From Naegleria gruberi (taxonomy: Eukaryota): a stretch of DNA of 64,000 bases. Position 1 is the stretch's first letter, and every line of letters begins with the position of its first letter. Location of the stretch: assembly GCA_000004985.1 (NCBI GenBank), contig GG738872.1. One strand, given 5' to 3'. The position numbers and the translations under genes are program-made. Below, in pieces: positions 1,721 to 52,370 of this stretch. The notes under the pieces were generated by a model. It searched no databases. It saw nothing but the letters and a program-made list of their open reading frames with translations, and was not told the origin of the DNA.

Positions 1721-4700
1721 TTATTGTGGAGGCTCAACATCTCCACTTCTAATAAAGTACTTGAGTTCCAACTCTATCAAGTGTTCATCACTCATTAGTG
1801 GACAAGAAATTGCTGTTGAACCATTGTTTGAATTATAAACTTCTAAAGCATGAGTTAGATTGGCACATCCAAGACGAGTGTCCAATTTTGAGGATGTGTA
1901 CAATCTGTCATATTGGGCAGGGAACAAATTCAAGATACCAAAGATTGTATTTTCATTGGTCATGTTTGGATACTTGTGAGCATTGCCCATTTCCTTCATT
2001 AAGATTTCAACAAATTGGCCATATGGAATTTCATTTACCTTGAATCCCATCTTTTTCATAACTTGGACAATGGCATGGACACTTCTTGTAGCCATAGGAT
2101 TATTTCTATTGGTGTTAATAACGTTGAAAATATTATTAACTGTCTTATCTTGAGCAAATAGAGAAGGATAGAGTTGATTTGAATTGACCACAGCTACAAT
2201 ACTCTGGGCACAAAAATCAACAGGAAGCATGTGAATACTGTCAGTAGAATTTTCTGGTGCAACACCCAAGTGAATCATACCACACATTAATCTGCTGATC
2301 CATTCTCTGACACTGGAGAAACCATTCTTTGAATGACCAACAACTAGTCCAGGTCTATAGATGGCAATTGATTTAATATTCTTCTCTTCCATGGCTAATC
2401 TGAGAATGTGTTCACTGATAAACTTGGTTTGTGGATAACCACCATTCAATAATTGGAAGTTTTCAACAGTGAGTGGAACGAAATCTTCATTTACAACGGT
2501 GTTATACTTGGCCATGTTGTGAGGTACTACACTGATGGAGGAGACAAAGTGAAGAGTCTTGAGCTTGTTTCCAGAAGTTGCAAGCTTGAGACATTCAACA
2601 ACACTTTGTACATTGACAGTTCTCAATTGATCATAATTCATAATAAAATTAACATTAGCTCCGCAGTGAATAATTGAGTCCAACTCTGTTGACAAGGTGC
2701 TGATCATTTGATTATCCAATCCGAATTGTGGCAAGCCAAAATCTCCACATAAAACTCTAGTTCTCGTTTCAAATCCGTTTTGAACGGCATTGATAACATT
2801 AGAGTCCAAACCTTGAGTGTATTGGACAATATTATCTAACACTCTTCTTCTACCTTCCTCTTCGGAGCTAGCTCTAACAAGGCAATAAACAATCGATTCA
2901 GGATAAAGTAGCAATTGTTCACATAGCAAACCACTTCCAATAAAACCTGTAACACCTGTCAATAAAATCTTCTTTGGTGTTTCATGCAAACAAGAGGTAT
3001 TCATGGTGGCAGTGTCAATAGATGGTACTTGAGAGAGCAAGCTTCTAACTTCCTCTTCCAAGGCATTATTGGAGGCAAATCTTGCAGATTTTTCAGACAT
3101 TGCTTGATTTGGATTTTGCATGGCATGGTCAATAATTTCCAACATTTTCTCTGCTGGATTATCATGATTCTTTACAGAGAGTAACTTGTCAGCTCCAACA
3201 ACAATACCAAACTTTTGCATCAAGATGTTCGATAGACGAACAGTACTCAAAGAATCAATAACACCTCCACTTTGGAACAAGTTTTGAATAATAGTCTTCA
3301 ATTGTTCCTTATTTTCAACAGTTTCGAGTTGAGTGATGTCACCTTCCTTTTCCACTTGAGTATAGAGTTTGTCGAGAGCTTCCTTGTAGGCCTTATTGAG
3401 GGCTGGTCTACAAATCTTGTACGAGCTGGTCAATTTACCATTGTCTGGTGTGAATTTTTCCAAATCAATTATAAATGCCTTTGGAGATTCATAGGACTCT
3501 AATTTTCCTTCTCTTGCTGCAGTAATAATTTCCTTTTGAATGATTTGATAAGCGACACTTCCTCTCGAGAGATCCATCGCGTCTGGTACTGGTAAGTTTT
3601 GTTCTTTCAAAACAGTGGCAACTTGCTCTTGCAAAATTGGAACGTTCTTTGGAACAATGACAGCAACCATGAATGATCTGAATGAATTTCCATACAAGAA
3701 CATTTGATCAATGAAATGAGATTTGGAAATGAAGAGATTTTCCAAATTTTCAGGAGCTACAAATTCACCTTGAGCTAACTTGAAAATATTCTTTCTTCTA
3801 TCAATAACTTTAACCTTGTAGGTACTCTTTGAAATCTCACCAATATCACCTGTATGATAGAATCCTTCGCTATCAATTAGTTCACTGGTCTTTTGAGCAT
3901 CTCTATAATAGCCAGGAATACAATCTTCACTCTTTACACAAATTTCACCTCTAGCATTTGGCTGATCGGTAATGTAATAGGAGAGTTCTGGAACATTTTC
4001 CAACTTGATGGTGACACCGTCAACTAGGAGCATGTGAGATGGAAGATTTTCATTGTCCTTCTTGGTCTTGTCTGTAATATACACTTGCTCCAATTCTCCT
4101 CTATCAATCCAACCAATGGATCCACACTCAGTTGAGGCATACCCATTGAAAACAGGTACCTTGAAGCAGTCACGAAGGAATTTAATTACTTCAGGGGAGG
4201 TTGCAGCGCCACCTGTTACAATTGAAGTTATTCTTCCTCCTAAAATATTTTTGAAATTATTCAAAATTAAAAATTCAGAGACTGGCTCACTACTACTAGC
4301 ATTTCTCTTCAATCTACTTTGATATTCAGCGAGGAGAGTATTGTAGAATCTTGGTGTAGTGGAAAGTGTTACAGGTTGAATCAATTGGAAATCTTCCAAA
4401 ATTTTATCCATTTCACCACAATAAATACCAACTCGGCCACCATTAATAGCACAAATTGTTGTGTTGGATCTGTCAGTAACGTGAGAGAGTGGTGAGAAGG
4501 AAACACACACAAGGGGATGATTTTGGTAGAGTTCATGTTGAAGTTGTTTGTTGTAGTGTCTATCTGTAATGATGGCCCCTTTTGGTTCGGTAGATGTGGA
4601 GCCAGAAGTATAGACAATTGTGCACATATCCTCGACATTTCTATTAGTCTTGATGGCAACTCTGAGCTCATCGGAAAATGTTGGATATTCATTAATAGTT

Positions 4701-6301
4701 GACATTTCCACATAGTTCATATCTTTCAATTCTACGGAGAGCTCTTTGGCCAACACTCTAGCCTTGAAATCAAGTTCAATATCATTTTCACTAATATAAT
4801 TTAAGAGGACAAAATCTTCATCTGAAGCATTCCAATCACACAAGTCTGCTAGTGAAGTGTTCATGTTAATATTGGTATCTGGATATCTGTTCTTCAATAA
4901 ATAATAATATCTCAAAAAGTCACTGGAATCCTTGGTATAATTGGTGAGTTTTTTGAGTCCTTCCAAATGAGATCTTCTTCTATTTTTGACAAGGTCTTGA
5001 ACATTATTTTCTTGTACAGATTGGAGGTATGATGGCACTTCCTCTTCCTCAACAATCAGGGCATCCATTTGTATAATGGCCTTCACAGATGGTAAGAGAC
5101 CTCTCTTGATGAGTTTTAAAAATTTGACAGTCAATTCTCTGCTACAAACAATGAGTGGAACTTGTGAATTATTTACCACTTGAATAATTTCGTGGGACAT
5201 CATTTTCATATCCTCCTTTGATTCTATATTTACAATATCTTCAGAGAGGCATTCAACTTTAGCTTTTGGAAGTGGAATGGTAACCATAGCTTGAGTCAAT
5301 CCAGCCCAATCAGCAACAAACCAATCAGGTCTGTTAATTGAACAAATGCCAACGAATCCTCTGTTGATTTCTTTTTGATTTTCTCTGTGTTGAGTCAAGA
5401 GCTTTTCATTATTGAAACAAATTCTCAACCCATTACCGAATCTCAATACTCTTTCGTGGAGTTGAGCATATGTAAACCAACGATACTTGTTCTCATATTG
5501 ATCCTTGGCAATTTTTCTTCTATAACCCAAACAAGGTCTATCAGCATAGGCCAATAGAGCATTATTGAGAGTTTCAGCAACGTAGGAACCTTTGGTGAGC
5601 CAATGCAAATGAGCAGGATGTTTCGAATTTTTCACCAAGAAAACATCATGAATAGGAATTGGTTTACGCTGGGCAATAGTTTCTCTTGCTTTAATCTTCC
5701 ACTCCTCCACACTCTTCTTCTCCCATTCCTCCATTGAAATATTAAAATCCTCAAATTTATCACTCTCCAAACAGTGCATCTTTGGTACATTGGTTTTGAG
5801 TTTTGCCTTTGAAATCATACAAACATCCTCATGTCTATCTCTATAGTATCCTTCATAAATATAAAATCTGACACCAATCTTCTTCTGATACTCTTCTCCA
5901 TTCTCACTCAGAGCCACTTGCAAATCGAGTGGCACAGAAGGATCAAATTTCTGTGGTTCAAATCGAAGAGCAGCCAAGAAGGCAGTCGGAACAAAACCAA
6001 TATGCTTCTCATTACGTGGAATATCATGATCATAGACTCGACATCCATTTCGATGAACATCACGAATATCCACTTTTTGAACCAATGCCCAACCCAAACC
6101 AGTTTCATACTCACGAAGGAGAATCATCAGATCACCAACTTTGAGTGATATCAAACCTTCAGAATTATTTGGCTCCACTTCATAGTCAGAAACCGAGATG
6201 GCATATTTAGGGAATTTGAACATTTTTTTTAAATTGTTAATCAATAGGTTGGATGTACTGGTGGATAAATAGTGCAGGTAACACACAAGGATCAAGTTCA
6301 T
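1721..6301 (-). CDS. SH3 domain / long-chain acyl-CoA synthetase-like adenylation domain / phosphopantetheine carrier domain / NAD(P)-dependent thioester reductase domain fusion (carboxylic-acid-reductase-like), single exon, 1526 aa
   Basis: N-terminal SH3-like region (ISLKVGDLMILLREYETGLGWALVQ...IGFVPTAFL). Then an AMP-binding core IVYTSGSTSTEPKGA. Then ACSL-type motifs YHTGDIGE and KLAQGEFVAPENLENLF. Then a carrier domain with a GGVIDSLSTVRL phosphopantetheine-attachment serine. Then a terminal reductase KKILLTGVTGFIGSGLL...VRASSEEEGRRR...CGDFGLPQFGL...IIHCGANVNF (NAD_binding_4 / TE-reductase signatures). An alternative ATG start lies at about 6223 (MFKFPKY). Confidence 0.85.
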   Translation of the reverse strand: MNLILVCYLHYLSTSTSNLLINNLKKMFKFPKYAISVSDYEVEPNNSEGLISLKVGDLMILLREYETGLGWALVQKVDIRDVHRNGCRVYDHDIPRNEKHIGFVPTAFLAALRFEPQKFDPSVPLDLQVALSENGEEYQKKIGVRFYIYEGYYRDRHEDVCMISKAKLKTNVPKMHCLESDKFEDFNISMEEWEKKSVEEWKIKARETIAQRKPIPIHDVFLVKNSKHPAHLHWLTKGSYVAETLNNALLAYADRPCLGYRRKIAKDQYENKYRWFTYAQLHERVLRFGNGLRICFNNEKLLTQHRENQKEINRGFVGICSINRPDWFVADWAGLTQAMVTIPLPKAKVECLSEDIVNIESKEDMKMMSHEIIQVVNNSQVPLIVCSRELTVKFLKLIKRGLLPSVKAIIQMDALIVEEEEVPSYLQSVQENNVQDLVKNRRRSHLEGLKKLTNYTKDSSDFLRYYYLLKNRYPDTNINMNTSLADLCDWNASDEDFVLLNYISENDIELDFKARVLAKELSVELKDMNYVEMSTINEYPTFSDELRVAIKTNRNVEDMCTIVYTSGSTSTEPKGAIITDRHYNKQLQHELYQNHPLVCVSFSPLSHVTDRSNTTICAINGGRVGIYCGEMDKILEDFQLIQPVTLSTTPRFYNTLLAEYQSRLKRNASSSEPVSEFLILNNFKNILGGRITSIVTGGAATSPEVIKFLRDCFKVPVFNGYASTECGSIGWIDRGELEQVYITDKTKKDNENLPSHMLLVDGVTIKLENVPELSYYITDQPNARGEICVKSEDCIPGYYRDAQKTSELIDSEGFYHTGDIGEISKSTYKVKVIDRRKNIFKLAQGEFVAPENLENLFISKSHFIDQMFLYGNSFRSFMVAVIVPKNVPILQEQVATVLKEQNLPVPDAMDLSRGSVAYQIIQKEIITAAREGKLESYESPKAFIIDLEKFTPDNGKLTSSYKICRPALNKAYKEALDKLYTQVEKEGDITQLETVENKEQLKTIIQNLFQSGGVIDSLSTVRLSNILMQKFGIVVGADKLLSVKNHDNPAEKMLEIIDHAMQNPNQAMSEKSARFASNNALEEEVRSLLSQVPSIDTATMNTSCLHETPKKILLTGVTGFIGSGLLCEQLLLYPESIVYCLVRASSEEEGRRRVLDNIVQYTQGLDSNVINAVQNGFETRTRVLCGDFGLPQFGLDNQMISTLSTELDSIIHCGANVNFIMNYDQLRTVNVQSVVECLKLATSGNKLKTLHFVSSISVVPHNMAKYNTVVNEDFVPLTVENFQLLNGGYPQTKFISEHILRLAMEEKNIKSIAIYRPGLVVGHSKNGFSSVREWISRLMCGMIHLGVAPENSTDSIHMLPVDFCAQSIVAVVNSNQLYPSLFAQDKTVNNIFNVINTNRNNPMATRSVHAIVQVMKKMGFKVNEIPYGQFVEILMKEMGNAHKYPNMTNENTIFGILNLFPAQYDRLYTSSKLDTRLGCANLTHALEVYNSNNGSTAISCPLMSDEHLIELELKYFIRSGDVEPPQ

Positions 6302-6565: not shown

Positions 6566-6970
6566 ATGTTTACTTCCGAATTCATGACTAAATTTCAAAC
6601 ATTATGGAATCAAGATGAAACGATTCCATCCACTCTCAAATCCATCAATTTCTCGGCCAATGTTGGTTATGGAATTAAAAGAGAGGATCAACCAAAGACT
6701 GTTTTAATTATTAAGGAAGGAAGTGTGGTGGATGCCAAAGTTTATGAAGGAGAGGAATTGGATTGGGATATTAGATGTTCTGAGGATAATTGGAAACATT
6801 ATATGGTGAAGGGAATGGGAATGTCACAACTCGCTTCAGGATATGCTATGGGTTGGCTTAAATTTATTAAAGGAGATTACTTTAGCATGATTAAGAATCC
6901 AAGAATGATTGGACCATTCATTAAGAGTTTTGAATTGATGAGCAAGGTATATACAGAACTGAATCAATAA
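6566..6970 (+). CDS. SCP2-like (sterol carrier protein 2 domain) small lipid-binding protein, 134 aa
   Basis: The C-terminal half (WKHYMVKGMGMSQLASGYAMGWLKFIKGDYFSMIKNPRMIGPFIKSFELMSKV) fits the SCP2 fold consensus (Gly-rich, K..GD....l..l). It is transcribed divergently from the acyl-reductase gene across a 265-bp intergenic region. Confidence 0.55.
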   Translation: MFTSEFMTKFQTLWNQDETIPSTLKSINFSANVGYGIKREDQPKTVLIIKEGSVVDAKVYEGEELDWDIRCSEDNWKHYMVKGMGMSQLASGYAMGWLKFIKGDYFSMIKNPRMIGPFIKSFELMSKVYTELNQ

Positions 6971-9439: not shown

Positions 9440-9605
9440 TTTTTCTGGAAATCTTAATAACAGTTAAAACTGATTTTTTTAGAGGGTTACTTGAATGTTG
9501 AGATTTTACAATAGTTTAAGGAGTAATATTAATTAATATTTTTGTAAAGGGGTATTAAACTCGACTATTTGCTGGAAGTGATAACACTATTCAATATTAA
9601 AAAAA

Positions 9606-11135
9606 ATGCCTCCAACCAATATTCGAACTCTTTCATCATCCAACAATAATTCATCACCATCATCGTCTTCGGGTACACAAAAATCATTTCCCACCACAGG
9701 TGGAAGAACACTCAGAGTTTCATCCTCATCCTCATCTACTAATGAAGACAATAGTACTGATAGAATTGGAGCATCATCTTCATCATCAACAGATGTAAAA
9801 AAGGCACCTTTGAATAATAATAATAGTATAATTATTAAACGTGATGATGGTATGGAAAATATTCCGAGAGAATTTACTCCACAAAAGTTTATACCACCCC
9901 CAAGATTTGATACAAACAAAACTCGGAGTAATCCATCTTCATCATCAAGTAATAATTCTTCTAATAGACAACATGTTTGTTCGTCGTTGTGTTCTTGTCC
10001 AAAAACAAGTTCTAGTAATGGAAAGAAGAATTCATGTGATACACCAATTTTCAATCAACAAACAGTGAATAATTTTAGTGATGCAATTATATTGGCAGAA
10101 TTGAATTCACCAACACCTGATGTTCATGTGTTATTTACTCATTTTGATGGCAAGTATTTCAGAAATAAGTTGTCAACGTGCACAACTTTGAGATGGAGTT
10201 CTAAAATGACACTTTGTGCTGGAATTTGTTATAGTCAATATCAGAAATATACCATAACAAAAACATTTGGACCTAGAGTGTCTTCGAGTGGATATTATGA
10301 TCCTAATGATATACTGAAAAAACAAGAGCAAGTCACTCAGAAAATTTGTACAATATCCTTGAGTGAATGCCTTTTAAAGTTTAGACCACCAATTGATACC
10401 ATTTCGACATTGATACACGAAATGATTCATGCTTTTTTATTCATCGACTCGAATGTTGTCGATAGAGAGGGTCATGGTGAAAATTTTCAGTGGTGGATGA
10501 AATTTGTCAACACCAAAGAAAATGGAACAGGAATTCACATTACAATTTATCATACTTTTCATGCTGAAGTTGATTATTATCGTCAACATCATTGGAGATG
10601 CAAGAAATGTGCGATGTTAGTCAAGAGAGCTATGAATAGAGCTCCTAACAAACATGACGATTGGTTTGCAGATCATGAGAAGAAGTGTGGAGGAAGTTTT
10701 GTAAAAATTAAGGAACCTGAAAAGGTTGAAAAGAAAAAGAGTGGAAATTATAAGGGTATTGAAAAATCGAGGAAATTTATGGAAAACTTTCTCACGAAAA
10801 AGAATCCAACCATTAAGGGAATTGAGAGTGATTCTGATCTCACAAAAGTAGCAGCAAATCAGATATCTAACAGTTCAACTGATAAAAAGAATGAAAAGAA
10901 ACCTATCAATGATTTGATAATTATTGAGGAGGATAGACCTAAAGGTAATACTAATAAGAAGAAGGATAATCTGCCTATTACGATTGAGATATTGGATGAT
11001 GAAGATGAAGAAGTGGATTCTCCATCATATAAATCCGATGAAATATTCATCAATGACGATGATTACATACCCCCAGACAATGTAATTATCCTAACAAATG
11101 ATCAAGACATTCAAGATGATGTTATTATTCTTTAA
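9606..11135 (+). CDS. SPRTN: SprT-like zinc metalloprotease (Spartan/DVC1-type DNA-protein crosslink repair protease), 509 aa
   Basis: HExxH active site (LIHEMIHAFLF). Downstream SprT zinc-binding region (REGHGENFQWWMKFVN...ITIYHTFHAEVDYYRQHHWRCKKC...HDDWFADHEKKCGGSF) aligns closely with the Spartan catalytic module. The N-terminal 150 aa are Ser-rich. The C-terminus is acidic and D/E-rich. Confidence 0.85.
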   Translation: MPPTNIRTLSSSNNNSSPSSSSGTQKSFPTTGGRTLRVSSSSSSTNEDNSTDRIGASSSSSTDVKKAPLNNNNSIIIKRDDGMENIPREFTPQKFIPPPRFDTNKTRSNPSSSSSNNSSNRQHVCSSLCSCPKTSSSNGKKNSCDTPIFNQQTVNNFSDAIILAELNSPTPDVHVLFTHFDGKYFRNKLSTCTTLRWSSKMTLCAGICYSQYQKYTITKTFGPRVSSSGYYDPNDILKKQEQVTQKICTISLSECLLKFRPPIDTISTLIHEMIHAFLFIDSNVVDREGHGENFQWWMKFVNTKENGTGIHITIYHTFHAEVDYYRQHHWRCKKCAMLVKRAMNRAPNKHDDWFADHEKKCGGSFVKIKEPEKVEKKKSGNYKGIEKSRKFMENFLTKKNPTIKGIESDSDLTKVAANQISNSSTDKKNEKKPINDLIIIEEDRPKGNTNKKKDNLPITIEILDDEDEEVDSPSYKSDEIFINDDDYIPPDNVIILTNDQDIQDDVIIL

Positions 11136-28615: not shown

Positions 28616-31600
28616 TTACTTGCTATCTTCCATCATTGCTCTTGCAGCTTCACTTGACAATGTTGTGGAAGAAGAAGGGGCATCATACTTTACAAGGAAA
28701 TCATCGAGTGGAATGGAGCGTTGTCTAAGACTTTCAAATAATTCCTTATTTTGTTTAACGTTACTCTCACCACTATCGATGGCATTCATGTAGAAAGCAT
28801 GAGTTCCTGAGCATTTGGATGGTTCAATTGAGAGAATGGTTGAACCACATACTTTTCCATCAATGATAGAATAACTTCCAGGAACTGTTTGTTTAACTTC
28901 CTCAATACTATCCAAGAATGTTACCATAACTCTAATTCCACTATCTCTGTAATATTTCAATCCATAGATAATATCATTCTTTGATAGATTATTTTCCTCA
29001 ATCCATGCTCCAGAAATAATTTGTTGTGAAGTTACATTATCTTGGCTTTGATCGAATATTTCCTTGTGGAATACGAAAATACATTCCAGTGTAATATTTG
29101 GATTTCTCTTATTGACTCTCTTATTCATGTCTGCAACTTCAAGAACACTTTCTTGTGTAAAATATGGTGATTGAACACTATTGGCAACAGTCCATGAGTG
29201 AATTGGAATAATCATGTGATGACTCTTTTCAACATATTCTTGAATATCGTGTAATCTTAATCTCATACTATCATAAAAGTTGGCATGGACAACAATTTCA
29301 CCTTTAGAAAAGAAGGTTGTAATTTGGTTTTCATAGTGCATACTGATAGAGTGGAACTTTTGTAAAAGAAGACATTTACCACAATGACGAGCATGCTTGT
29401 CTTTTGGAGTGTTGATCATTTCGAGGAACTTTTTCTTGAATCCTTGTAAGAGTGGATCCAAACAAATTTGCAAAGTTTCAATATTTTCATGAATATCAAA
29501 TGAAAGGAGAGGATCAGTGAGACTCATATTCTTATCCTGATACAAGGTATTAGAAGGAGGAATGGTTTCACTCACAGTGTGATCAGTATTACAAAGAGGA
29601 TGACATTGTTTGGCTTCTGTACAGGTTGCAGCAGGAAGAGTTGATGGAGTCACATTGCCAAAATCGACACCTTCTGGGAATTTCTCTTTAATGTAGTCTT
29701 CAAATGGTGTAGAATGATTATAAACATAGACCCATTTGGAGTAGTACAAGTCAGCAACACTCTTTCTATTGAAAATAATGACAGATTTTGGATAATCATC
29801 TTCAAAGGAAAGGTAATGGCCAAGTCTAGAGTCTAGAATGGAAAAGTTGTGTGGAATTTCTTTTCTATCATCCAGATCCTTGTGATGAACAACTCTTACC
29901 TCAATTCCACATGAATGATGGTAATGCATAAGCTTGTAATATTCCTTTTCTTCAGATTCAGTCATATTTGGAATTCCAACAACGAAAATTCTTTTCACGA
30001 CAGCTCCTGGATTAATGTCCAATAGTTTTTTGTTTGCATCGGCAAGATGATATGGATTATGTAAAATCCATTCACCAGTCCATCTGTAGAGAGCAAGATA
30101 ACTATGACGAACAGTCTTGATAATTTCAGTCAAGTTCAATTTGTGATTGGTGTAAACATCTGAACGAAGTTCTATCTTTTCTTCATTAATCAATTTTTCA
30201 AATGTCTGCAGGTAGTAATTGGAAATTTGGAAGAATTTAACTTTCAATAGAGCCATCAACTATATTAGGGTTAATTGGACAAATTGTTACTAAACAAAAA
30301 CTTACAGATTCATGTTTGTGCATATCACCTAAATTCATGTTTTGGATATAATCCTCATAGAGTGAGAGGAGTGATACAATTCTTTCCAATTCAGAATTGT
30401 AACTGTGCTTTTCGTAGGACTTTGGAATAAATAAAAAGTTTCCTCCTCCAAGCTCAACTTCTCCAAATCTTGGAACTTGGACGCCACCTGTTTCCTTGTG
30501 AACTCTTGTTTGAAGTTGTTTTCCTAAATCACTAGCAGTGTAGAATGGAGTGAGAGTTAAATGACCTTTCACACTGGATCCCCATTTGAGAGTTGTTAAA
30601 AGATTTACCAACTCCTTACTAAAGACACCTGGTTTCATTCCATTACTCTTTTGAGAGGAGCAAATAATTTGGACGGCCTTGTTGGAGGAATAGTACTTCA
30701 TATCCTTGGATGGATGGCTATCATTGACTACTTTCATGAGTATACCATTATAGAAAGTGTCAAAAATAAAGAGGGTATGTTTGGCAGCCAATCTATGATG
30801 GAAATTGACAAAGGATTGGTGGGAAATGGCTGTATTAACAAGGTTATCTGGATCAGTATCATATAAGGCCAAATAATTTTCAGTGTAGCCGTTATTGTAT
30901 TGCTTGGAAAGAGAAACACCAGTAAAGAAAATGAGTATGGCATCATCGTTTTGCAAACTATCACTCTCTGCAAGGGAAACAAACAGCTGGTTGACTTTGC
31001 TCCATGTAGCTTCCTCATTTAACAATAATCTAACTTCAAAACCATAAATCTTTGAAAGAATGTTGGAAATATTCATGGCATCGTGAACAGATGAGGCTGA
31101 AGATTGATGCAAAAGTCCATTATGGTGATACTTATCGATGGCAATAACAATGGCCCATTCTCTTCTGTAAGGTGTTGATGATTCCTTTCTCTTCTTCTTC
31201 TTGTCCTTGGAAAGGGAGATGGCTGTTGGATTGAAAGTACTGCTAATACCGTTTGAGGAATTAGAAGAAGTGAGAGAGACAGGTCCACACTCACCATCAC
31301 AACAATCAACAAACTTTCTCTTCTTGGTAGATTCTCCAACCATAATATTTGAACTGCTATCATCCAAAAACTCAAACTTCAAGTCTTGTGGATTAGATAC
31401 TGAAAAGTTACTTGTTCTAATTTCAATTGGCACTTCTCCTTTGAAGTCAATTTGTGGAGCCATTACAAAAATGGCATTTTGGTTAATTTGTTTAATTTCC
31501 ACTTCCTTCTCGCCAAGGAAAACCTTAACTTCCTGTAGGTCGGTAATCAATCTACTATCAAAATTGCATTGAATAAATATGAGATATCCACCAGCATTAG

Positions 31601-33428
31601 AGCCAGATTTTGGAGAAACTATAAAACTACCATTGGAAGCAACTGCAACAGTTTGAGGTTTTTCAGTCGAGGAAGAAGAACCCAAAGAGGCGGTTGATGA
31701 TGACCTAGTTAATTTTTCTTTTGGTGTTTGACTTTGTACAACGATAGATGATACATTATTTGGTACAGGAGAGGAAGGAGGAGAGTTTTCTCCATTATTA
31801 GACAATTCGTCCATATCTTCCTCATCTTTGCCAATATCTTCGCCTCCTTTGGATTTTCTCTTACTCTTAGTATTCTTACCACAATTAATGGCAAATAATT
31901 TAGTGGAATCTACATAGTAAGTCAACCAATTGTCGTAACAAAGTTTGTAACGAAGTTGACAATTCTTCTTATTATTTGATACAATACCAGCCTTAATTGG
32001 TGCATATTGAATGATGGTGGTAGCTGGGTTTTCTGGATTAGAAAAGACAGAAAAGCCTTCTCTACTATTTTCAGACTTTTTCTTCTTTGGTTTGTCTCTG
32101 GTCAAGCCCTTATCTTGTTCTTGACTGCTCATAAGAAGTGTCACATCAGCCCTCCACAAATCATCACTGAATGCAATTTCATTTCTTTGAACCTTTGTCT
32201 TGAGATCCTCCAAATTGATTGTCAAGTTGAGTTTTTCACTAACTTGACAGAAGGCTTCACCTTCCTTTTCCAGGATTGAGTTTCGTTGCCTTATCATGTT
32301 GATGATTGTACTCACCAACATTCTGAACCTATCCAAGGAAACTTCAATTGACACTGTTAAAGGAGTCTTTTTCCTATTAGAAACTGATTTACCACCAATT
32401 ACAGTTTCAGGAATTGTATCGTCCATTATTTTCAAAACTGGAATTAATTGCATGAGACAATTCGACCAAATTTGAACATTTGTAATACCACCATTCACAA
32501 TCACCTGTTGCACAGCATGGATACCCTTGTCCAATGTTGGAAAGAATTGAGTGGTTGGAGGGGAAGCACTAGACCTCGAATTTGAGTCCCTGGTTGATGT
32601 TTGTAATTGATTACTTGATGATGAGGATGAAATAGGAGTGCTGTTGGAGGTAGGGGCTGAGTTTGCATTGTATCCACCTGGCAAACCAGTCATGGTTGAA
32701 ATCATGGCTCCAAAATTACTCAAAGCACTGCTACTATTAGCTGCTGATGATTGTTTCGATGATTGTTGTGGCAAACTGGCCATTCCCATATTATTATTAT
32801 TATTGGAATTTTGTTTGTAAGCATTTTGTGGTTGTTGTTGCTGAGCTGTTGTTGCTTGCACAACACCATTCATAGCAGTTGGTACCTGTTGCCTACTGGT
32901 AGAAACAAGTTGTGGTTGTTGTTGCTGTTGTTGCTGTTGGGTCATACTTGTTAAATAGCTTTGTAACAACTTGTTATGTTGGAGAACTGTATTGTGAGCA
33001 TTGTGAAGGAATTGATTATTGTTGGTGGCAAAGATTTGTTGAGGATTTGTACTTGATGATCCATTCGAATAGAGAGATGATGTATCAAAGTACATTTGAT
33101 TGTCATTCTTTGATTGTTGGTCATCCATATCTTCATCATTGAGGAATTCCTCAACTCCTAGATCAAATTGACTTTCAATTGATTGCAATGCATTCAAGGC
33201 TTGATTGTATTGGTTTAATTCTTCAGTACTATTCATGCTACTCTGAGTACCTGGCATGGCAAATAAATTACCCCTCTGCAATGATTGTCTCTGTAGCTGA
33301 TTCAACAATTGTTGTTGGTGATGATTGGCTGCTGATTGTGAGGTTGATGCAGATGAGACATTGTTCTGCTGCTGCTGATTGCTGTTACCCGAAGTGGTAA
33401 CTTTTAAAGTAGAAGCATCAAAAAACAT
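28616..33428 (-). CDS. Very large (about 1590 aa) Q/N/S-rich protein containing a degenerate caspase-like (peptidase C14-like) domain, two exons (33428-30307, 30260-28616)
   Basis: ORFs 30237-33428 and 28616-30259 are on the same strand. They join through a 46-nt GTAAGT...ATATAG intron (30261-30306), phase 0. The caspase-like segment is WAIVIAIDKYHHNGL...SSVHDAMNISNILSKIYGFEVRLLLNEEAT...NDDAILIFFTGVSL...YLALYDTD. It has the fold signature, but the catalytic His (FFTGVS instead of SHG) and Cys (DTFYNG instead of DxCHSG) are replaced. The N-terminal 300 aa are poly-Q/N, and the C-terminal 550 aa are unassigned. Confidence 0.6.
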
Positions 33429-47639: not shown

Positions 47640-50600
47640 TTATTGTTGAATGGTTGAGTTTGGTCTATTTTCCTTATCACCCAATTGTCTATATTTTTGC
47701 TTGATAGATTCCAAGTCGATGGAACTACTATATCTATTGGTAGCACTATTGGCCTTGATATTGGCAAATCTTTCTCTGAGACTATCAATATTGTTGGTAG
47801 AGGAGAGAGCACTCGAGTAGGTAGAACCATTAATATTGGACAAGCTTCTCATCTTTCTATAATCCTCAATTGATTTTGGTTTGGTATCAAATTGAGAAAT
47901 GGTGGCACTATTTACACTGCTGTAACGAGATAAGATGTTTTGGGAGAGGCTGGAAGTGGCAGGGGTTGTTGTTGGAATTTCCTTGAGAACTGGTCTAACT
48001 TCCTCTGGAGGAGAACTGAATGGCATTTGGTTGACTGAATGATTGACTGTAATGGTTGGAGTTTGTTGTGTAGATTCGAGGGCGACCTTCTTCGATTGTT
48101 CATGAGCAGCAATCTTGGCAACAGATCCAATAATGTACTCTTGGAAAATCTTACCAAATGATGTAGTTCCAAGGAATTCGTTGATTTTAAATTCAGGATG
48201 TTGCACTTGGAATTTGTAAAGCTTATATAATCCAGATCTTGTGGTTTCCTTATTTCCAATTAATGTACAAATTTCCTTGAGTTGATCACTCTCTGATTCA
48301 AACAAGCTGTTGGTGCTATCAGAGGATGTAAAGGTGTTAGTGTTGGTGGAAGAACTAGAAAGAGAGAGGACGTTCAACTCGTGTTCAATGTGAGAAATCA
48401 TAACCTTATTGAGTGTTGTGAGATAGGTTCTCAAAGAGTTTCCTTTCAGCTTGACAAGAGTTTGGATAATAGTCTTGATCATTCTCAAAGGGCTATCATC
48501 CTTGCCTTCAAAGAATGTTGGAGGATTGCTAGAGAGGAAGCTTTGAATATCCAACAATACTGAACCAATTTCAATGATACCAATTGTCTTTTCCAAAGTC
48601 TTAGTGAGCTTGGAGAGACACTTGATAAGTACCTTGGTAAAGCTGGTTGGTTCCTTTTCATGATCGAGGCAGGACTTTTCCAATAAAGTAATCAAGCAAC
48701 TGTAAGCAGTGGTTCTGGAACAATTTTCAAGAATACGAAGAATGAGAGTATTGAGAGCAGCAACCATCTTTTCACCATATTCAATAGTTGGTAACTTGTC
48801 ATTGAGTAAAAGTCTGAGTAAGACTTCTAAAAGATTGAGGAGAGTCTTCTTTTGTACCAATGAGGAAAAGTTTCTAGATTCAAACAAACCCATCATGGTA
48901 TTGATCATAATCTTACAAATTCTTGGACCAGAGAGACCAATAATGACAGAGTCAAAAGCAACCTCAAAGAAGATGGAAAGGGAGTAAACCAATTGTTCTC
49001 TATTCATGGAAATACCCATATCTTGGTATTCAACATGCTTATCAAGAGTCTTCATGGCATTCATAGCATTTTCAAAGTTACTGATTTTAGTGTTAGTGAG
49101 AACTCTAATGATTTGTTCGACAGACATTTGTACATCCTTAGATTGTGGAACAATATTAATCTTCTTTGGAGTTAACAAGGTGGTTGGTGACAATAATAAT
49201 TCTTCAGTAGCAAGCTTTGAGAATTTGAGCTTCTTTGGTGTAGTAAAGACACTATCCTTGACTGTTGAAATGCTTCTCTTTCCTGGAGTAGAAGGAGGAG
49301 ACATTGGACATTCGATTGGTTTTGGGAAGTCCATTTTGAACAAGGAGGATTGAACAAGAGTTTTTCTTGAGCTCTTATCATCTTCAATGACTGGTTGGAC
49401 TGGAGTAGGTTGTGTAACTGTTTTAGATTGGTTTTGCTTTTTCATTTCTCCAATAGTGAGGGAAGAGGAGGATCTTTGCAAAGTTGAAGCAGCTGGTTGG
49501 GTTTGTGGTTGTTGGGCAGGCTTAGTTGGTGGTTGTTCAGCTTTGACTGGTTGAACTTGTTGGACAGTTTGTTGGGCTGCTGCTGTTGGTTGATATTGGT
49601 TTTCATACTTGGAAATAACAGCAATGATGCTACTCTTGGAAGCATTGTTGAGATCTTGACAGAAACTCTTGATAAAATCAGCACCAGTTGTTCTGATAAC
49701 CTTTTCCAAAACTGTTTCAGCAAGTTTTCTTGTGCATGCCTTTGGGTCTTGCAAGCAGTTAATGAGAGGCTTGGCGAGGTGTTGGAGAGTATCCCTAGAT
49801 TTGTTCTTGACTTCCAAAATGTAAGTGTCAATGAATTGGAGAGCATCTCTTCTTCCTTCAGGATGGCCCTTCTCATTGTTCAAAGGCTTGTCCATATACT
49901 TGATAATGTTATCCATATTGAGAGATTTAACAAGTCCTTCTAAAGTTTGGTAAGTAGCAGTTCTGATCACCTTATTGTTGTGAGTGAATTTGGTCACCAA
50001 ATTTTGTAAAATGACTGGACTGAACTTTTCAAATCCACTACCAGCAGCTTCACCAATGAAAACATAAAGTTCCATTGTTGTACTGAGAATCTTGACATTA
50101 GCATCTTCCATTCTCTTCTTCAGAGCTTGAATGAGATTATTAAGATTTGGAGTAATTCTCTTATTAGCTTCAGTGATTATATTCTTGATTTCTTCCAAAG
50201 CTTCCAATCTAGTCTTCCAAGCTTTGTCCTCCAATTCTCCAAGAATCTTTGATGTAATCTTGCCAGAGATATCAGTTCTTGGCAGTAAATCATCAAAAGA
50301 TGGAGCACTACCTGGTTCACCAGACTTACTACTTGTACTAACATTCATACCTCTGACAAACTTGGTTTGTGTAGGTGGAGCATCTGTGAATTTTTGGAAT
50401 TCCTTCTTGATGGAATCCAACAATGCAGGCTTGACATCATTCAAATAATTCAAAAGTCCATCTCCCATAAACTTTTTCATGGAACAGAGAATTTCTGTAG
50501 CGCCAGTCTTGACAGGAGGCTTAGCATTACCCAAACAAACCTTTGAAAAATCAATAATTGACTTGACATCAATAGTTTGCATGGCAAAGTGTTCGATTGT

Positions 50601-51629
50601 AGCAGCCATCCATCCAAGAGTTTCACCAGCAATCTTTGGATTCTTGTGATCCTTAATAATTGGGTAGAGTTGATTAAAGACGAATTGAGGAGAGTACATT
50701 TCAGCAAGCTTGGAAAGACATTGAGTGCAAGGATCTTTCAATTTGGCAGTAGCAATCTTTTCAACAAGTCCTTCAATAACTGTTACAGCAGGCCCAGTTG
50801 AAAGAGTTGAGCAACTGTCCACAATTAACATTACCATTTCAATAACTTTTGACAAATTTTGAACATTTGATTCCTTCCAGCCAGGCTTTGAGTTAAGAGT
50901 TACGACAATAACATCAGCATTACTAGCCATAACATCCTTATCCATTTCTGTTAGGGATTTAGAGAGAGATTCAATTGCTTCCATACGTTCCTTCAATTTA
51001 GAAGAAGATAATGCCTCAACAATGGATGCATCAATAATTTCTGCAATTCTACTTTGAGCCTCCTCAAGGGACACTGTATTTCTAATACTGTTATCAATAG
51101 GTTTGGAAAGTTCCTTCCCACCAGCAGCTTTCTTTTTTGCAGGTGCAGCAGAAGAAGCACCATCTGATTTTCTCTTCTGTGAAGGATTTGGTCTTGAGAG
51201 GGCTGGCTTTTTAAGAGGAGGACGACTAGTTGTTTTTGGTGGTGATGTTGTTATTGTTGTTGTTGACTCGGTAATAGTATCGGCATCAACAGCAGATTCT
51301 TCCTCTGCTATTGTTGCTTCTGTTGTTGTTTTAGATGGTGTTGAAGTTATTGTTGTTTGTGATGATTCCTCCTCTGTATTTGATGATGATGATGATGTTG
51401 TTGCTGCAGTAGTGCTTCGTTTGAATGGACGAGCCTTGTGTTTACGTTGTGGTGGAGGTCGATTGGTTCTTGTGGTTTGGGAAATTCCTCCTGTGGATCC
51501 TTCTTGTTGTAAGGCTTGCTCTAACATTTTTTGGAAGAGAGCATTCGAGTCCAATACATCTACATTTTCGCCATTATCATCGGTGGCTTGATTATTGTTT
51601 GATGTTGTAGGGATTGGCTTGTCTTCCAT
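47640..51629 (-). CDS. TOG/HEAT-repeat microtubule-regulator-like protein (XMAP215/CLASP/crescerin-type TOG domains), about 1330 aa, single exon
   Basis: ORF 47640-51665 begins at TTG. The first ATG at 51629 gives MEDKPIP. After a 200-aa S/T/A-rich N-terminus come TOG-like HEAT arrays, for example DKAWKTRLEALEEIKNIITEANKRITPNLNNLIQALKKRMEDANVKILSTTMELYVFIGEAAG...KVIRTATYQTLEGLV. Confidence 0.6.
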   Translation of the reverse strand: MEDKPIPTTSNNNQATDDNGENVDVLDSNALFQKMLEQALQQEGSTGGISQTTRTNRPPPQRKHKARPFKRSTTAATTSSSSSNTEEESSQTTITSTPSKTTTEATIAEEESAVDADTITESTTTITTSPPKTTSRPPLKKPALSRPNPSQKRKSDGASSAAPAKKKAAGGKELSKPIDNSIRNTVSLEEAQSRIAEIIDASIVEALSSSKLKERMEAIESLSKSLTEMDKDVMASNADVIVVTLNSKPGWKESNVQNLSKVIEMVMLIVDSCSTLSTGPAVTVIEGLVEKIATAKLKDPCTQCLSKLAEMYSPQFVFNQLYPIIKDHKNPKIAGETLGWMAATIEHFAMQTIDVKSIIDFSKVCLGNAKPPVKTGATEILCSMKKFMGDGLLNYLNDVKPALLDSIKKEFQKFTDAPPTQTKFVRGMNVSTSSKSGEPGSAPSFDDLLPRTDISGKITSKILGELEDKAWKTRLEALEEIKNIITEANKRITPNLNNLIQALKKRMEDANVKILSTTMELYVFIGEAAGSGFEKFSPVILQNLVTKFTHNNKVIRTATYQTLEGLVKSLNMDNIIKYMDKPLNNEKGHPEGRRDALQFIDTYILEVKNKSRDTLQHLAKPLINCLQDPKACTRKLAETVLEKVIRTTGADFIKSFCQDLNNASKSSIIAVISKYENQYQPTAAAQQTVQQVQPVKAEQPPTKPAQQPQTQPAASTLQRSSSSLTIGEMKKQNQSKTVTQPTPVQPVIEDDKSSRKTLVQSSLFKMDFPKPIECPMSPPSTPGKRSISTVKDSVFTTPKKLKFSKLATEELLLSPTTLLTPKKINIVPQSKDVQMSVEQIIRVLTNTKISNFENAMNAMKTLDKHVEYQDMGISMNREQLVYSLSIFFEVAFDSVIIGLSGPRICKIMINTMMGLFESRNFSSLVQKKTLLNLLEVLLRLLLNDKLPTIEYGEKMVAALNTLILRILENCSRTTAYSCLITLLEKSCLDHEKEPTSFTKVLIKCLSKLTKTLEKTIGIIEIGSVLLDIQSFLSSNPPTFFEGKDDSPLRMIKTIIQTLVKLKGNSLRTYLTTLNKVMISHIEHELNVLSLSSSSTNTNTFTSSDSTNSLFESESDQLKEICTLIGNKETTRSGLYKLYKFQVQHPEFKINEFLGTTSFGKIFQEYIIGSVAKIAAHEQSKKVALESTQQTPTITVNHSVNQMPFSSPPEEVRPVLKEIPTTTPATSSLSQNILSRYSSVNSATISQFDTKPKSIEDYRKMRSLSNINGSTYSSALSSTNNIDSLRERFANIKANSATNRYSSSIDLESIKQKYRQLGDKENRPNSTIQQ

Positions 51630-52370
51630 TTTTTTTGAATTTGTTTGTGGATTGTTTAACACCAACTAACGATCAATTTTTTTAAATTTTGGCGCCATTT
51701 AATTTTGGCGGGCAAACAACTAAAATCTACCAGTCAACTGAATTAATTCTTTCACTTGACAATCAAATAGTGTTATTGGTAATACCTCTCACAAATAATA
51801 TGTAATACAAAACCCATCTCAATAACAAATATTTCGAAATCAATACAGTCAAATGTTATCACTCTACAATTTTTTCACAAGTTATTTCCGCCCAATTTAA
51901 CGATATTCATCAATTTGGCACTCTCTTTCCCCTCTGTGAATTTTCCATTTAAAAGGCATTACTCATTTTTAACTGAATTTTCTGTAAAAGAAGAGAGGAA
52001 TGTTTTTTTGGAGGTTGTGCCGTAAGTACAGTTGGTTCATGGATGATTTGAAGAAAGGGCAGACAAATAACTTGTTGTAAAGACGCACACTAGAGAGTTT
52101 TAACAAGTTAAAAAACAGTGTCAATTGGTTGCTCTCTCTGATCCTCTTTTACTTTCGATTGGTTTCGTATATCGTAGTTATTGGACTAAGAGTATCGACG
52201 ATAGTGGAAGATTTTAAAGGATTTTGGGTAATAATTATTTTATGGGGTAGGTTTTACTTGTCAACGTTCTAGTTCACCTTCTTGCCTGTCAAAAATACAA
52301 AAAAAGGACGAAATATTATCTCTTAAAGTTTTGATGAGAATTGAATAATCAATCAATAGAAAATTATAAA

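What the first reader, a model, noticed from the sequence alone, without database searches (positions are those of the whole stretch)
1721..6301. Single-exon 1526-aa fusion of SH3 domain, fatty-acyl-CoA-synthetase-like adenylation domain, PCP and terminal thioester reductase
The domain order A-T-R is that of carboxylic acid reductases (Lys2/FadD9). Here the adenylation domain carries long-chain acyl-CoA synthetase signatures (YHTGDIG, LAQGEFVAPENLENLF) rather than NRPS ones, which predicts fatty acid to fatty aldehyde or alcohol chemistry. An N-terminal SH3 domain on such an enzyme is, as far as I know, not a described arrangement. It implies recruitment to proline-rich partners, for example a cytoskeletal or membrane scaffold. 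The PCP serine (GGVIDSLS) and the reductase Rossmann motif (TGVTGFIGSG) are intact.
Basis: partly seen in the sequence, partly recalled or inferred. Interest (0 to 1): 0.8.

Follow-up and report, generated by a model that had tools for sequence, protein, structure and literature searches.

The report
SH3-tagged carboxylic acid reductase, Naegleria
This intact Naegleria gruberi gene encodes a carboxylic-acid-reducing enzyme of the bacterial CAR/FadD9 type that carries a genuine SH3 protein-docking domain at its front end, a combination conserved in related amoebae but apparently never described or tested.

Summary
The ORF is real (1721..6301, minus strand). Orthologues and the existing N. gruberi fragment model start at Met27, so the protein is probably 1500 aa (CDS 1721..6223).

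The adenylation, carrier and thioester-reductase order is confirmed. The best matches are bacterial type I carboxylic acid reductases (PDB 5MSC, E 3e-77). Every published CAR signature residue I could map is present.

New points:
- The window is N. gruberi, whose public proteome held only a 303-aa fragment of this gene.
- The SH3-bearing proteins form one clade (97% bootstrap) within a eukaryotic branch of the CAR family.
- Relatives carry a ZZ zinc finger between the SH3 and adenylation domains. Here it survives only as a relic with four of six cysteines lost.
- The SH3 has a roughly 22-residue distal-loop insertion, and the adenylation domain has a roughly 95-residue lineage-specific insertion.

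A fatty-acid substrate is plausible but unproven, because the "acyl-CoA-synthetase" motifs are shared by all type I CARs. Verdict: a new variant of a known kind, of moderate interest.

The parts
1721..6223 (-). Most likely CDS: 1500 aa plus stop, from Met27 of the ORF. Architecture is SH3, relic ZZ, adenylation domain, carrier, thioester reductase.
   Evidence: ORF. Start inferred from orthologues and from N. gruberi fragment model XP_002668177, which begins MFKFPKY. Coordinates.
6224..6301 (-). 26 in-frame codons upstream of Met27 (MNLILVCYLHYLSTSTSNLLINNLKK), probably 5' UTR rather than coding sequence.
   Evidence: Absent from all orthologues and from the annotated N. gruberi fragment.
5960..6211 (-). 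SH3 domain, residues 5-88 (Met27 numbering).
6002..6070 (-). Insertion of about 22 residues in the SH3 distal loop (DIRDVHRNGCRVYDHDIPRNEKH), specific to the Naegleria/Willaertia clade.
   Evidence: Alignment A5 against P0016, which has an SH3 of canonical length. The model shows a helix at 53-58 and low pLDDT at 65-67.
5858..5959 (-). Helical extension packed on the SH3 (residues 89-122). It contains a PxxP motif (P95-S-V-P98).
   Evidence: pLDDT 84-89 in the model. PxxP read from the sequence. The motif is conserved in the N. fowleri and N. lovaniensis orthologues but not in Willaertia or the B paralogues.
5714..5863 (-). Relic of a ZZ-type zinc finger, residues about 121-170. Four of the six Cys positions are lost.
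   Evidence: BLAST alignment to P0016, whose homologous stretch scores ZZ at 20.7 bits. Clastostelium P0047 scores ZZ at 33.4 bits, above the cut-off. The window stretch has no ZZ hit and low pLDDT at 123-162.
3350..5620 (-). Adenylation domain (ANL superfamily, ACSL/CAR type), residues about 202-958. Key motifs and residues: P-loop YTSGSTSTEPKGA 538-550, PLSH with H581, GYASTECG 694-701, YHTGDIG 789-795, hinge D808/R809, LAQGEF with E820, and A10 Lys K936.
   Evidence: Invariant columns in alignment A3.
4775..5062 (-). Insertion of about 95 residues in the N-terminal half of the adenylation domain (residues 388-483). Present in Naegleria and Willaertia, absent in P0016 and bacterial CARs.
   Evidence: Alignment A3 and BLAST against P0016.
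3104..3337 (-). Carrier (PCP/ACP-like) domain, residues 963-1040, with a shortened loop before the serine.
   Evidence: Pfam PP-binding only E 0.14. In the family profile against the PDB, 17 of 20 hits are carrier proteins, including the top 13 and the carrier segments of CARs 5MSP, 5MSC and 5MSO; E 0.006-0.03 for the top nine. UniProt labels the N. fowleri orthologue 'Carrier domain-containing protein'.
3251..3253 (-). Codon of Ser991, the predicted phosphopantetheine attachment site in GGVIDSLS.
   Evidence: D990 and S991 are invariant in all six aligned family members. They align with the DSL serine of CAR carrier domains.
1724..2971 (-). Thioester reductase (SDR-type) domain with its C-terminal subdomain, residues 1085-1500. 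Key motifs: TGVTGFIG 1089-1096 and GYPQTKFISE with Y1263, K1267 and E1271.
   Evidence: NAD_binding_4 at E 6.6e-53. TIGR01746 at 215 bits, above the cut-off. PDB matches to the reductase domains of CAR, MxaA and NRPS enzymes. Motif positions.

Best explanation
The gene encodes a cytosolic, carrier-dependent carboxylic acid reductase of the type I (bacterial CAR/FadD9-like) kind, extended at its N-terminus by protein-interaction modules.

Proposed mechanism, inferred from homology:
1. The adenylation domain uses ATP to form an acyl-AMP from a free carboxylic acid.
2. The acyl group moves to the phosphopantetheine arm on Ser991 of the carrier domain.
3. The C-terminal SDR-type reductase (Tyr1263/Lys1267) releases it with NADPH, as an aldehyde or possibly further reduced to the alcohol.

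The most likely substrate class is medium- to long-chain fatty acids. This is inferred, not shown.

The N-terminal SH3 domain is a genuine canonical-type SH3 fold. It most likely tethers the enzyme to a partner protein or scaffold. A ZZ zinc finger that relatives carry after the SH3 has decayed here.

Shown: domain identities, catalytic-residue conservation, family relationships and the SH3 fold (predicted, not solved). Inferred: activity, substrate, product oxidation state and SH3 ligand.
For: Architecture and family:
- NCBIfam CAR model scores 404 bits across residues 495-1373, and TIGR01746 scores above its cut-off.
- PDB CARs 5MSC, 5MSO and 5MSP match at E 1e-73 to 3e-77, aligned from the adenylation core through the carrier into the reductase.
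- After the eukaryotic members, the nearest relatives are bacterial CARs/FadD9.

Published CAR signatures (PMC5826065) are present:
- PxxH (PLSH, H581).
- L/F-S/A-x-G-E-F (LAQGEF, E820, with the bacterial-type Phe).
- A10 Lys (K936).
- Carrier Ser (S991).
- T/SGxxGxxG (TGVTGFIG).
- GYxxxKxxxE (GYPQTKFISE).

Carrier domain: the family profile retrieves mainly carrier proteins from the PDB (17 of 20 hits, including the top 13), with the serine aligned.

Purifying conservation: 50-61% identity across Naegleria and Willaertia with catalytic residues invariant. The SH3-bearing clade is monophyletic at 97% bootstrap.

Fatty-acid lean: the FACS-signature-like stretch EGFYHTGDIG...VIDRRKNIFKLAQGEFVAPENLE, and 30% identity to a plant long-chain acyl-CoA synthetase. 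Fatty-acid reduction by mycobacterial CARs is from my own knowledge (Akhtar et al. 2013, cited in PMC5826065).
Against: - No biochemical data exist for any member.
- The NCBIfam CAR equivalog cut-off (1300 bits) is far from met (404 bits).
- The P-loop is atypical (SGSTSTEPKG, with one extra residue and Gly replaced by Ser), and the carrier domain scores below Pfam threshold.
- The adenylation domain carries a 95-residue insertion of unknown effect.
- Nothing in the sequence discriminates fatty acids from aromatic or other acids.
- No conserved gene neighbourhood hints at a pathway.
- N. gruberi already has FARAT, AGPS and PEDS1 for ether-lipid fatty alcohol supply (bioRxiv 10.1101/2025.10.10.681575), so that obvious role is already filled.
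- No PPTase gene was found among the window ORFs of 180 aa or more.
- The SH3 evidence rests on an AF2 model built from only four sequences, and the first Tyr of the ALYDY motif is Ser here.
Confidence: 0.7

Rival explanations
1. Same A-T-R chemistry, but the substrate is not a fatty acid. It could be an aromatic, short-chain, dicarboxylic or specialised-metabolite acid, making this a secondary-metabolism or detoxification enzyme.
For: Type I CARs with the same ACSL-like motifs reduce benzoate and many aromatic acids (own knowledge of Nocardia CAR; CAR promiscuity is described in PMC5826065). The adenylation domain is no closer to a LACS (214 bits) than to a CAR adenylation domain (195 bits). 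Three paralogues per Naegleria genome suggest diversification of substrates.
Against: The A8 region matches eukaryotic ACSL almost residue for residue (IDRRKNIFKLAQGEFVAPE), more closely than it matches the NiCAR sequence (alignment). No biosynthetic cluster surrounds the gene.
Confidence: 0.3
2. The SH3 domain is not a recruiter for external proline-rich partners. It acts within the protein, for example by binding the adjacent PxxP-containing extension for autoregulation, or serves in oligomerisation or as a structural cap.
For: A PxxP motif (P95-S-V-P98) directly follows the SH3. The 89-122 extension is modelled packed against the SH3 with pLDDT 84-89 and an overall pTM of 0.70. The first ALYDY Tyr is lost (Ser), and a 22-residue distal-loop insertion is present.
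Against: The PxxP is absent in Willaertia and the B paralogues. Trp, Pro and the two other aromatic ligand-contact positions are retained (Y14, W45, P79, F82). The ancestral partner domain, ZZ, is also a protein-binding module, which points to external partners.
Confidence: 0.35
3. The reductase performs a four-electron reduction, so the product is a primary alcohol rather than an aldehyde, as with MxaA-type or FAR-type reductases. The alcohol would feed wax-ester, acetate-ester or ether-lipid synthesis.
For: The reductase domain also matches MxaA (E 1e-37) and other alcohol-forming terminal reductases. In the related eukaryotic contig L001, the gene immediately downstream of the homologue P0016 is an alcohol acetyltransferase-family protein (PF07247, E 9e-10).
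Against: The closest full-length relatives, the CARs, stop at the aldehyde. No AATase homologue is found in this window (tblastn). Gene adjacency carries little weight in eukaryotes. N. gruberi has FARAT for fatty alcohol supply.
Confidence: 0.25
4. The carrier domain is degenerate and non-functional. The protein would then work as an acyl-CoA synthetase fused to an acyl-CoA reductase, or be catalytically dead and serve as a scaffold.
For: Pfam PP-binding scores only E 0.14. The loop before the serine is shortened and the P-loop is atypical.
Against: Asp-Ser of the attachment motif is invariant in all six aligned members. The family profile hits mainly carrier proteins. All A-domain and R-domain catalytic residues are conserved at 50-61% overall identity.
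Confidence: 0.07

Closest known systems
Bacterial type I carboxylic acid reductases (CAR/FadD9; e.g. Nocardia iowensis, Segniliparus and Mycobacterium CARs; PDB 5MSC, 5MSO, 5MSP)
   Same: Same A-T-R order. About 28-30% identity, alignable from the adenylation core to the reductase domain. All mapped CAR signature residues are present, including the bacterial-type GEF and the A10 Lys.
   Different: Eukaryotic. About 330 extra residues: an N-terminal SH3, a relic ZZ, and insertions in the adenylation domain. Atypical P-loop and a shortened carrier loop. Scores 404 bits against the NCBIfam equivalog cut-off of 1300.
Fungal CARs and NRPS-like A-T-R enzymes (types II-IV, e.g. Neurospora crassa NcCAR)
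   Same: A-T-R logic, PPTase dependence, and the essential His, Glu, Ser, Tyr and Lys residues (PMC5826065).
   Different: Fungal enzymes have an NRPS-type adenylation domain, Lys instead of Phe after Gly-Glu, and no conserved A10 Lys. The window protein follows the bacterial pattern. No SH3 or ZZ has been reported for the fungal enzymes.
Eukaryotic long-chain acyl-CoA synthetases (ACSL/LACS/Faa)
   Same: 30% identity over 456 residues of the adenylation domain to a plant LACS. Near-identical A8/FACS-signature stretch.
   Different: ACSLs release acyl-CoA and have no carrier or reductase domain.
Lys2 / alpha-aminoadipate reductase
   Same: A-T-R architecture with reductive release to an aldehyde.
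   Different: TIGR03443 matches only the T-R portion (residues 878-1525, 167 bits against a cut-off of 1030). The adenylation domain is not of the Lys2/NRPS type.
Myxobacterial ElbD and eukaryotic FAR/FARAT (fatty alcohol supply for ether lipids)
   Same: Reduction of activated fatty acids by an NAD_binding_4 reductase. ElbD-like A-T-R-acyltransferase proteins appear as distant hits (P0008, P0029).
   Different: Different domain order and partner domains, at about 23% identity. N. gruberi has a separate FARAT.
ZZ-A-T-R proteins of other amoebae (Clastostelium recurvatum P0047; Naegleria paralogue C, e.g. N. fowleri FDP41_013591) and the SH3-ZZ-A-T-R proteins P0016 and P0035
   Same: Same family, at 27-40% identity to P0016 (the window protein is 38% identical to P0016). 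N-terminal protein-interaction modules fused to a CAR core.
   Different: In those proteins the ZZ finger is intact or nearly so. P0047 and paralogue C lack the SH3. The window protein keeps the SH3, now carrying an insertion, and has lost the zinc ligands.
FUT8 (alpha-1,6-fucosyltransferase), a metabolic enzyme carrying an SH3 domain
   Different: Unrelated catalytic domain. The SH3 is C-terminal and luminal.

Membership tests
Carboxylic acid reductase (EC 1.2.1.30), type I | Adenylation, carrier and thioester-reductase domains in that order on one polypeptide | tested here: met
Carboxylic acid reductase (EC 1.2.1.30), type I | Essential A-domain residues: His of PxxH and Glu of L/F-S/A-x-G-E-(F in bacteria), as defined in PMC5826065 | tested here: met
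   PLSH (H581) and LAQGEF (E820). G819 and E820 are invariant in the family; H581 is His in the five heterolobosean sequences but not in P0005.
Carboxylic acid reductase (EC 1.2.1.30), type I | A10 catalytic Lys, conserved in bacterial CARs | tested here: met
   K936 in GKLTSSYKICRP is invariant.
Carboxylic acid reductase (EC 1.2.1.30), type I | Phosphopantetheine-attachment Ser in a carrier domain | tested here: met
   D990 and S991 are invariant. The carrier profile hits mainly carrier proteins. However, Pfam PP-binding scores only E 0.14 on this protein.
Carboxylic acid reductase (EC 1.2.1.30), type I | R-domain motifs T/SGxxGxxG and GYxxxKxxxE | tested here: met
   TGVTGFIG at 1089-1096 and GYPQTKFISE at 1262-1271.
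Carboxylic acid reductase (EC 1.2.1.30), type I | Canonical A3 P-loop S/T-S-G-S/T-T-G/S-x-P-K | tested here: inconclusive
   TSGSTSTEPK has one extra residue. The variant is conserved in all Naegleria and Willaertia members. Alanine substitutions in this motif were tolerated in NcCAR.
Carboxylic acid reductase (EC 1.2.1.30), type I | Score above the NCBIfam NF041592 equivalog cut-off (1300 bits) | tested here: not met
   404 bits. The model is built on prokaryotic CARs.
Carboxylic acid reductase (EC 1.2.1.30), type I | ATP- and NADPH-dependent reduction of a carboxylic acid to an aldehyde, requiring a PPTase | not testable with these tools
   Needs enzymology. No PPTase was found among window ORFs of 180 aa or more. 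The rest of the genome was not searched.
SH3 domain (canonical eukaryotic) | Pfam SH3_1, SH3_2 or SH3_9 above gathering score | tested here: not met
   No hit for the window sequence. Relatives are sub-threshold: P0035 SH3_1 at 21.5 bits against 22.9; P0016 SH3_9 at E 1e-4; N. fowleri SH3_2 at E 2e-3.
SH3 domain (canonical eukaryotic) | Family-profile homology to solved SH3 domains | tested here: met
   46 of 46 PDB hits at E<10 are SH3 domains, best E 0.0018.
SH3 domain (canonical eukaryotic) | Five-stranded SH3 barrel fold | tested here: met
SH3 domain (canonical eukaryotic) | Conserved ligand-contact residues (ALYDY Tyr pair, Trp, Pro, Tyr) | tested here: inconclusive
   From the alignment to the Nbp2 SH3: the first Tyr is Ser. 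Y14, W45 and P79 are retained, and F82 is a conservative Tyr-to-Phe change.
SH3 domain (canonical eukaryotic) | Binding of PxxP or related peptides | not testable with these tools
   Needs binding assays.
ZZ-type zinc finger | Two zinc sites formed by six Cys plus two His/Cys ligands; Pfam PF00569 | tested here: not met
   No ZZ hit on window residues 89-209. Only two of the six Cys positions of P0016 are kept. It is a relic, not a member.
Lys2 / alpha-aminoadipate reductase | Full-length match to TIGR03443, including the NRPS-type adenylation domain | tested here: not met
   167 bits against a cut-off of 1030, covering only the T-R region.
Long-chain acyl-CoA synthetase | Stand-alone ANL enzyme that releases acyl-CoA | tested here: not met
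   The adenylation domain is ACSL-like but is fused to carrier and reductase domains. NCBIfam LACS models score far below their cut-offs.

The most novel reading that the evidence does not exclude
These proteins define an undescribed eukaryotic class of carboxylic acid reductases, SH3/ZZ-CARs of Heterolobosea and Amoebozoa. In this class a carrier-protein-dependent reductase is wired through SH3 or ZZ modules to a scaffold (cytoskeletal, membrane or organelle-surface). Reactive fatty aldehyde or alcohol would then be produced at a defined cellular location, for example during the amoeba-flagellate-cyst transitions of Naegleria.
Probability: 0.3. Interest if true: 0.7.

Novelty: new variant of a known kind. 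Interest (0 to 1): 0.5.

Why it matters
CARs are valued biocatalysts, and so far they are catalogued only from bacteria (type I) and fungi (types II-IV). A conserved protist branch with protein-docking domains would add a new class with different regulation and possibly different substrates.

For cell biology, an SH3-tethered ATP- and NADPH-driven acid reductase suggests spatially targeted aldehyde or alcohol production, which has no described precedent.

For Naegleria, a genus that includes the brain pathogen N. fowleri, the family has three paralogues per genome and no animal counterpart. It bears on an organism reported to prefer lipids as fuel (my own recollection of Bexkens et al. 2018, not checked here).

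The window also supplies the first full-length N. gruberi sequence of a gene that was only a 303-aa fragment in the public proteome.

Tried and rejected
1. Exact look-up of the 1526-aa product found nothing on record. The explanation came later: the old N. gruberi assembly holds only a 303-aa fragment.
2. Pfam on the N-terminus alone gave no SH3 hit for the window sequence. I therefore switched to a family profile and a structure model.
3. The N-terminal profile searched against 1.84 billion representatives gave only six hits. Four are heterolobosean (including N. gruberi's own fragment) and two are repeat-protein artefacts (P0011, P0012). No wider family was found with that profile. P0016 and P0035 were reached only through the full-length searches.
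4. I suspected that the divergently transcribed 134-aa ORF at 6566..6970 is an SCP2-like lipid carrier. Pfam at E<=10 and the PDB sequence search gave no support.
5. I looked for conserved neighbours in N. fowleri and Willaertia and found no synteny.
6. I looked for an AATase homologue in the window, like the gene next to P0016, and found none.
7. I considered a role in ether-lipid fatty alcohol supply. N. gruberi already has FARAT, AGPS and PEDS1.
8. I considered Lys2 identity and rejected it.
9. The weak Pfam hits Cas9_C_2 and NNH2 inside the protein are below their cut-offs and were treated as noise.
10. Rooting of the NJ tree is unresolved: the deep nodes have 37-59% bootstrap. I make no claim about horizontal transfer or its direction.

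Full report
**Observation.** The window has a continuous ORF of 1526 codons at 1721..6301 on the minus strand. Its GC content (37%) is close to that of the rest of the window (34%). The other genes in the window are ordinary eukaryotic genes: SprT/Spartan, PIG-N, Tfb2, PNO1, a TOG-domain protein, a GH1 glycosidase, NUDIX and a kinase-NACHT-HEAT protein.

**Source organism.** A 303-aa database protein (P0009) is identical to the N-terminus of this ORF from its 27th codon onward. It is N. gruberi XP_002668177 (NAEGRDRAFT_54917), which sits on a 2.9-kb contig. The window is therefore N. gruberi, presumably from a more contiguous assembly. The full-length product is absent from the protein collection.

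**Start codon.** That gene model and all orthologues begin at MF(K/N)F.... The likely CDS is 1721..6223 (1500 aa), and residues are numbered from this Met below.

**Catalytic core.**
- Pfam finds AMP-binding (E 4.6e-39) and NAD_binding_4 (E 6.6e-53).
- NCBIfam finds the thioester-reductase domain above its cut-off. The carboxylic acid reductase equivalog model matches over 880 residues at 404 bits, well below its 1300-bit cut-off.
- Against PDB sequences, the three best hits are full-length bacterial CARs (5MSC, 5MSO, 5MSP; E 1e-73 to 3e-77). They align continuously from the adenylation core through the carrier into the reductase.
- With the less derived relative P0016 as query, the eukaryotic members are followed by hundreds of actinobacterial and proteobacterial CAR/FadD9 proteins at 27-31% identity over about 80% of the length.
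- The CAR signature set defined by mutagenesis of NcCAR (PMC5826065) is present: PxxH (PLSH, H581), LAQGEF (E820, with the Phe typical of bacterial CARs), the A10 Lys (K936), the carrier Ser (S991), TGVTGFIG and GYPQTKFISE (Y1263, K1267).
- The P-loop is unusual (SGSTSTEPKG). This variant is fixed throughout the Naegleria/Willaertia clade.

**Carrier domain.** On this protein Pfam PP-binding scores only E 0.14, because the loop before the serine is shortened. I built a six-sequence profile of the region. Of its 20 PDB hits at E<=10, 17 are acyl, peptidyl or D-alanyl carrier proteins, including the top 13 and the carrier segments of the three CAR structures. The DSL serine is aligned. Asp990 and Ser991 are invariant. 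UniProt labels the N. fowleri orthologue 'Carrier domain-containing protein'. P0016 has a canonical GGDSIS motif and a Pfam PP-binding hit.

**SH3 domain.** The window sequence gets no Pfam SH3 hit. Four relatives get consistent sub-threshold hits to SH3_1, SH3_2 or SH3_9.

Three further tests support a canonical SH3:
- A seven-sequence family profile retrieves 46 PDB sequences at E<10, and every one is an SH3 domain (best: Nbp2, E 0.0018).
- A Foldseek search of the same model gives a top 50 that are all SH3 (prob 1.00, TMt up to 0.82).

The fold is thus a canonical eukaryotic SH3, not merely an SH3-like barrel. Compared with P0016 it has an insertion of about 22 residues in the distal loop.

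Of the five classical ligand-contact positions, Y14, W45 and P79 are kept, F82 is a conservative Tyr-to-Phe change, and the first ALYDY Tyr is Ser (alignment). A helical extension (residues 89-122) is modelled against the domain with high confidence. It contains a PSVP motif that is conserved only in the closest orthologues.

Between the SH3 and the adenylation domain, P0016 has a Cys-rich stretch scoring as a ZZ zinc finger (20.7 bits against a cut-off of 21.4). P0016 comes from a eukaryotic JGI contig at 35% GC that also encodes histone H2A and Snf7.
- P0035 has the same kind of stretch after its SH3. Its Cys pattern is visible in the sequence, but Pfam gives no ZZ hit for it.
- The amoebozoan Clastostelium recurvatum protein P0047 has a ZZ above threshold (33.4 bits) and no SH3.
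- A third Naegleria paralogue (N. fowleri FDP41_013591, N. lovaniensis C9374_013423) has a ZZ-like finger (18.8 bits) and no SH3.
- In the window protein the homologous segment keeps only two of the six Cys positions, scores nothing and is modelled with low confidence. It is a relic.
- The adenylation domain also carries an insertion of about 95 residues (388-483) that is absent from P0016 and from bacterial CARs.

**Family structure.** I built a neighbour-joining tree on 1057 columns with 100 bootstraps.
- The SH3-bearing proteins form one clade at 97% support. It contains the window protein, N. fowleri A, N. lovaniensis A, Willaertia, the Naegleria B paralogues, P0016 and P0035.
- Bacterial CARs form a clade at 100% support.
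- The deeper order among bacterial CARs, Clastostelium, paralogue C and P0005 is unresolved (37-59%).
- The tree therefore suggests that the SH3 was gained once. No direction of transfer can be claimed.

The N-terminal profile found nothing outside Heterolobosea among 1.84 billion representative proteins.

**Function.** The best-supported mechanism is that of a type I CAR: adenylation of a free acid, thioesterification on the Ser991 phosphopantetheine arm, then NADPH-dependent reductive release.

The substrate is not determined. The adenylation domain is about equally similar to a plant LACS (214 bits) and to a CAR adenylation domain (195 bits). The A8 stretch is nearly identical to the ACSL consensus, which tilts the guess towards fatty acids.

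Gene context gives no help:
- Neighbours are not conserved between N. gruberi, N. fowleri and Willaertia.
- The alcohol-acetyltransferase-family gene next to P0016 has no counterpart in the window.
- N. gruberi already has FARAT, AGPS and PEDS1 for ether lipids.
- No PPTase is encoded among the larger window ORFs. One must exist elsewhere in the genome if the organism makes holo-ACP, which is an inference.

The protein has no signal peptide and no C-terminal PTS1-like tripeptide (it ends ...VEPPQ). I therefore take it to be cytosolic, judging by eye from the sequence.

**Novelty.** Full-text searches found no paper linking CARs with SH3 domains, Naegleria or amoebae. The CAR classification literature covers bacterial type I and fungal types II-IV (PMC5826065).

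The orthologues are in public databases only as hypothetical or 'Carrier domain-containing' proteins. I file this as a new variant of a known kind: a eukaryotic CAR branch with N-terminal SH3 or ZZ protein-interaction modules.

Interest is moderate. The enzyme chemistry is expected. The fusion to a canonical SH3 domain and its conservation are unusual and testable.

Noticed in passing
window 6566-6970 (+): A 134-aa ORF is transcribed divergently from the CAR gene, about 340 bp from its start. By eye it looked SCP2-like, but Pfam at E<=10 and the PDB sequence search gave nothing.
   Followed up: partly
window 53629-58179 (+): A 1516-aa ORF combines the C-terminal half of a protein kinase domain, a NACHT NTPase (below the Pfam cut-off) and HEAT repeats. 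The kinase is cut off at the ORF start (TTG), so an upstream exon or a different start is likely. It looks like a STAND-type signalling protein.
   Followed up: no
window 28616-33428 (-): Two large ORFs on the same strand overlap slightly (547 aa and 1063 aa; TIG domain and DUF6879 hits). They may be one gene split by an intron or a frameshift.
   Followed up: no
window 47640-51665 (-): A 1341-aa protein with TOG domains of the XMAP215/CLASP/CEP104 kind, a microtubule regulator.
   Followed up: no
window 9606-11135 (+) and 9587-10054 (-): A SprT/Spartan-like protease with a Spartan zinc-binding domain and long Ser/Asn-rich low-complexity tails. The antisense 155-aa ORF overlapping it is probably spurious.
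   Followed up: no
L001 6635-7693 (+): In the eukaryotic JGI contig that carries the SH3-ZZ-CAR homologue P0016, the next gene downstream on the same strand belongs to the alcohol acetyltransferase family (PF07247, E 9e-10). This is a possible hint of an alcohol-ester pathway. It has no counterpart in the window.
   Followed up: partly
window 4775-5062 (-), within the CAR gene: An insertion of about 95 residues in the adenylation domain (residues 388-483) is conserved in Naegleria and Willaertia and absent in P0016 and bacterial CARs. It has no domain hit and its role is unknown.
   Followed up: partly
P0011 and P0012 (database proteins, not in the window): Two highly repetitive proteins matched short pieces of the N-terminal profile in many stretches (18 and 4). 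They look like translated tandem repeats and are taken as spurious matches.
   Followed up: partly
L002 6001-10621 and L003 6001-10583: The N. fowleri and Willaertia orthologue gene models span 46 and 92 nt more than their coding length, implying short introns. The N. gruberi copy in the window is intron-free.
   Followed up: no
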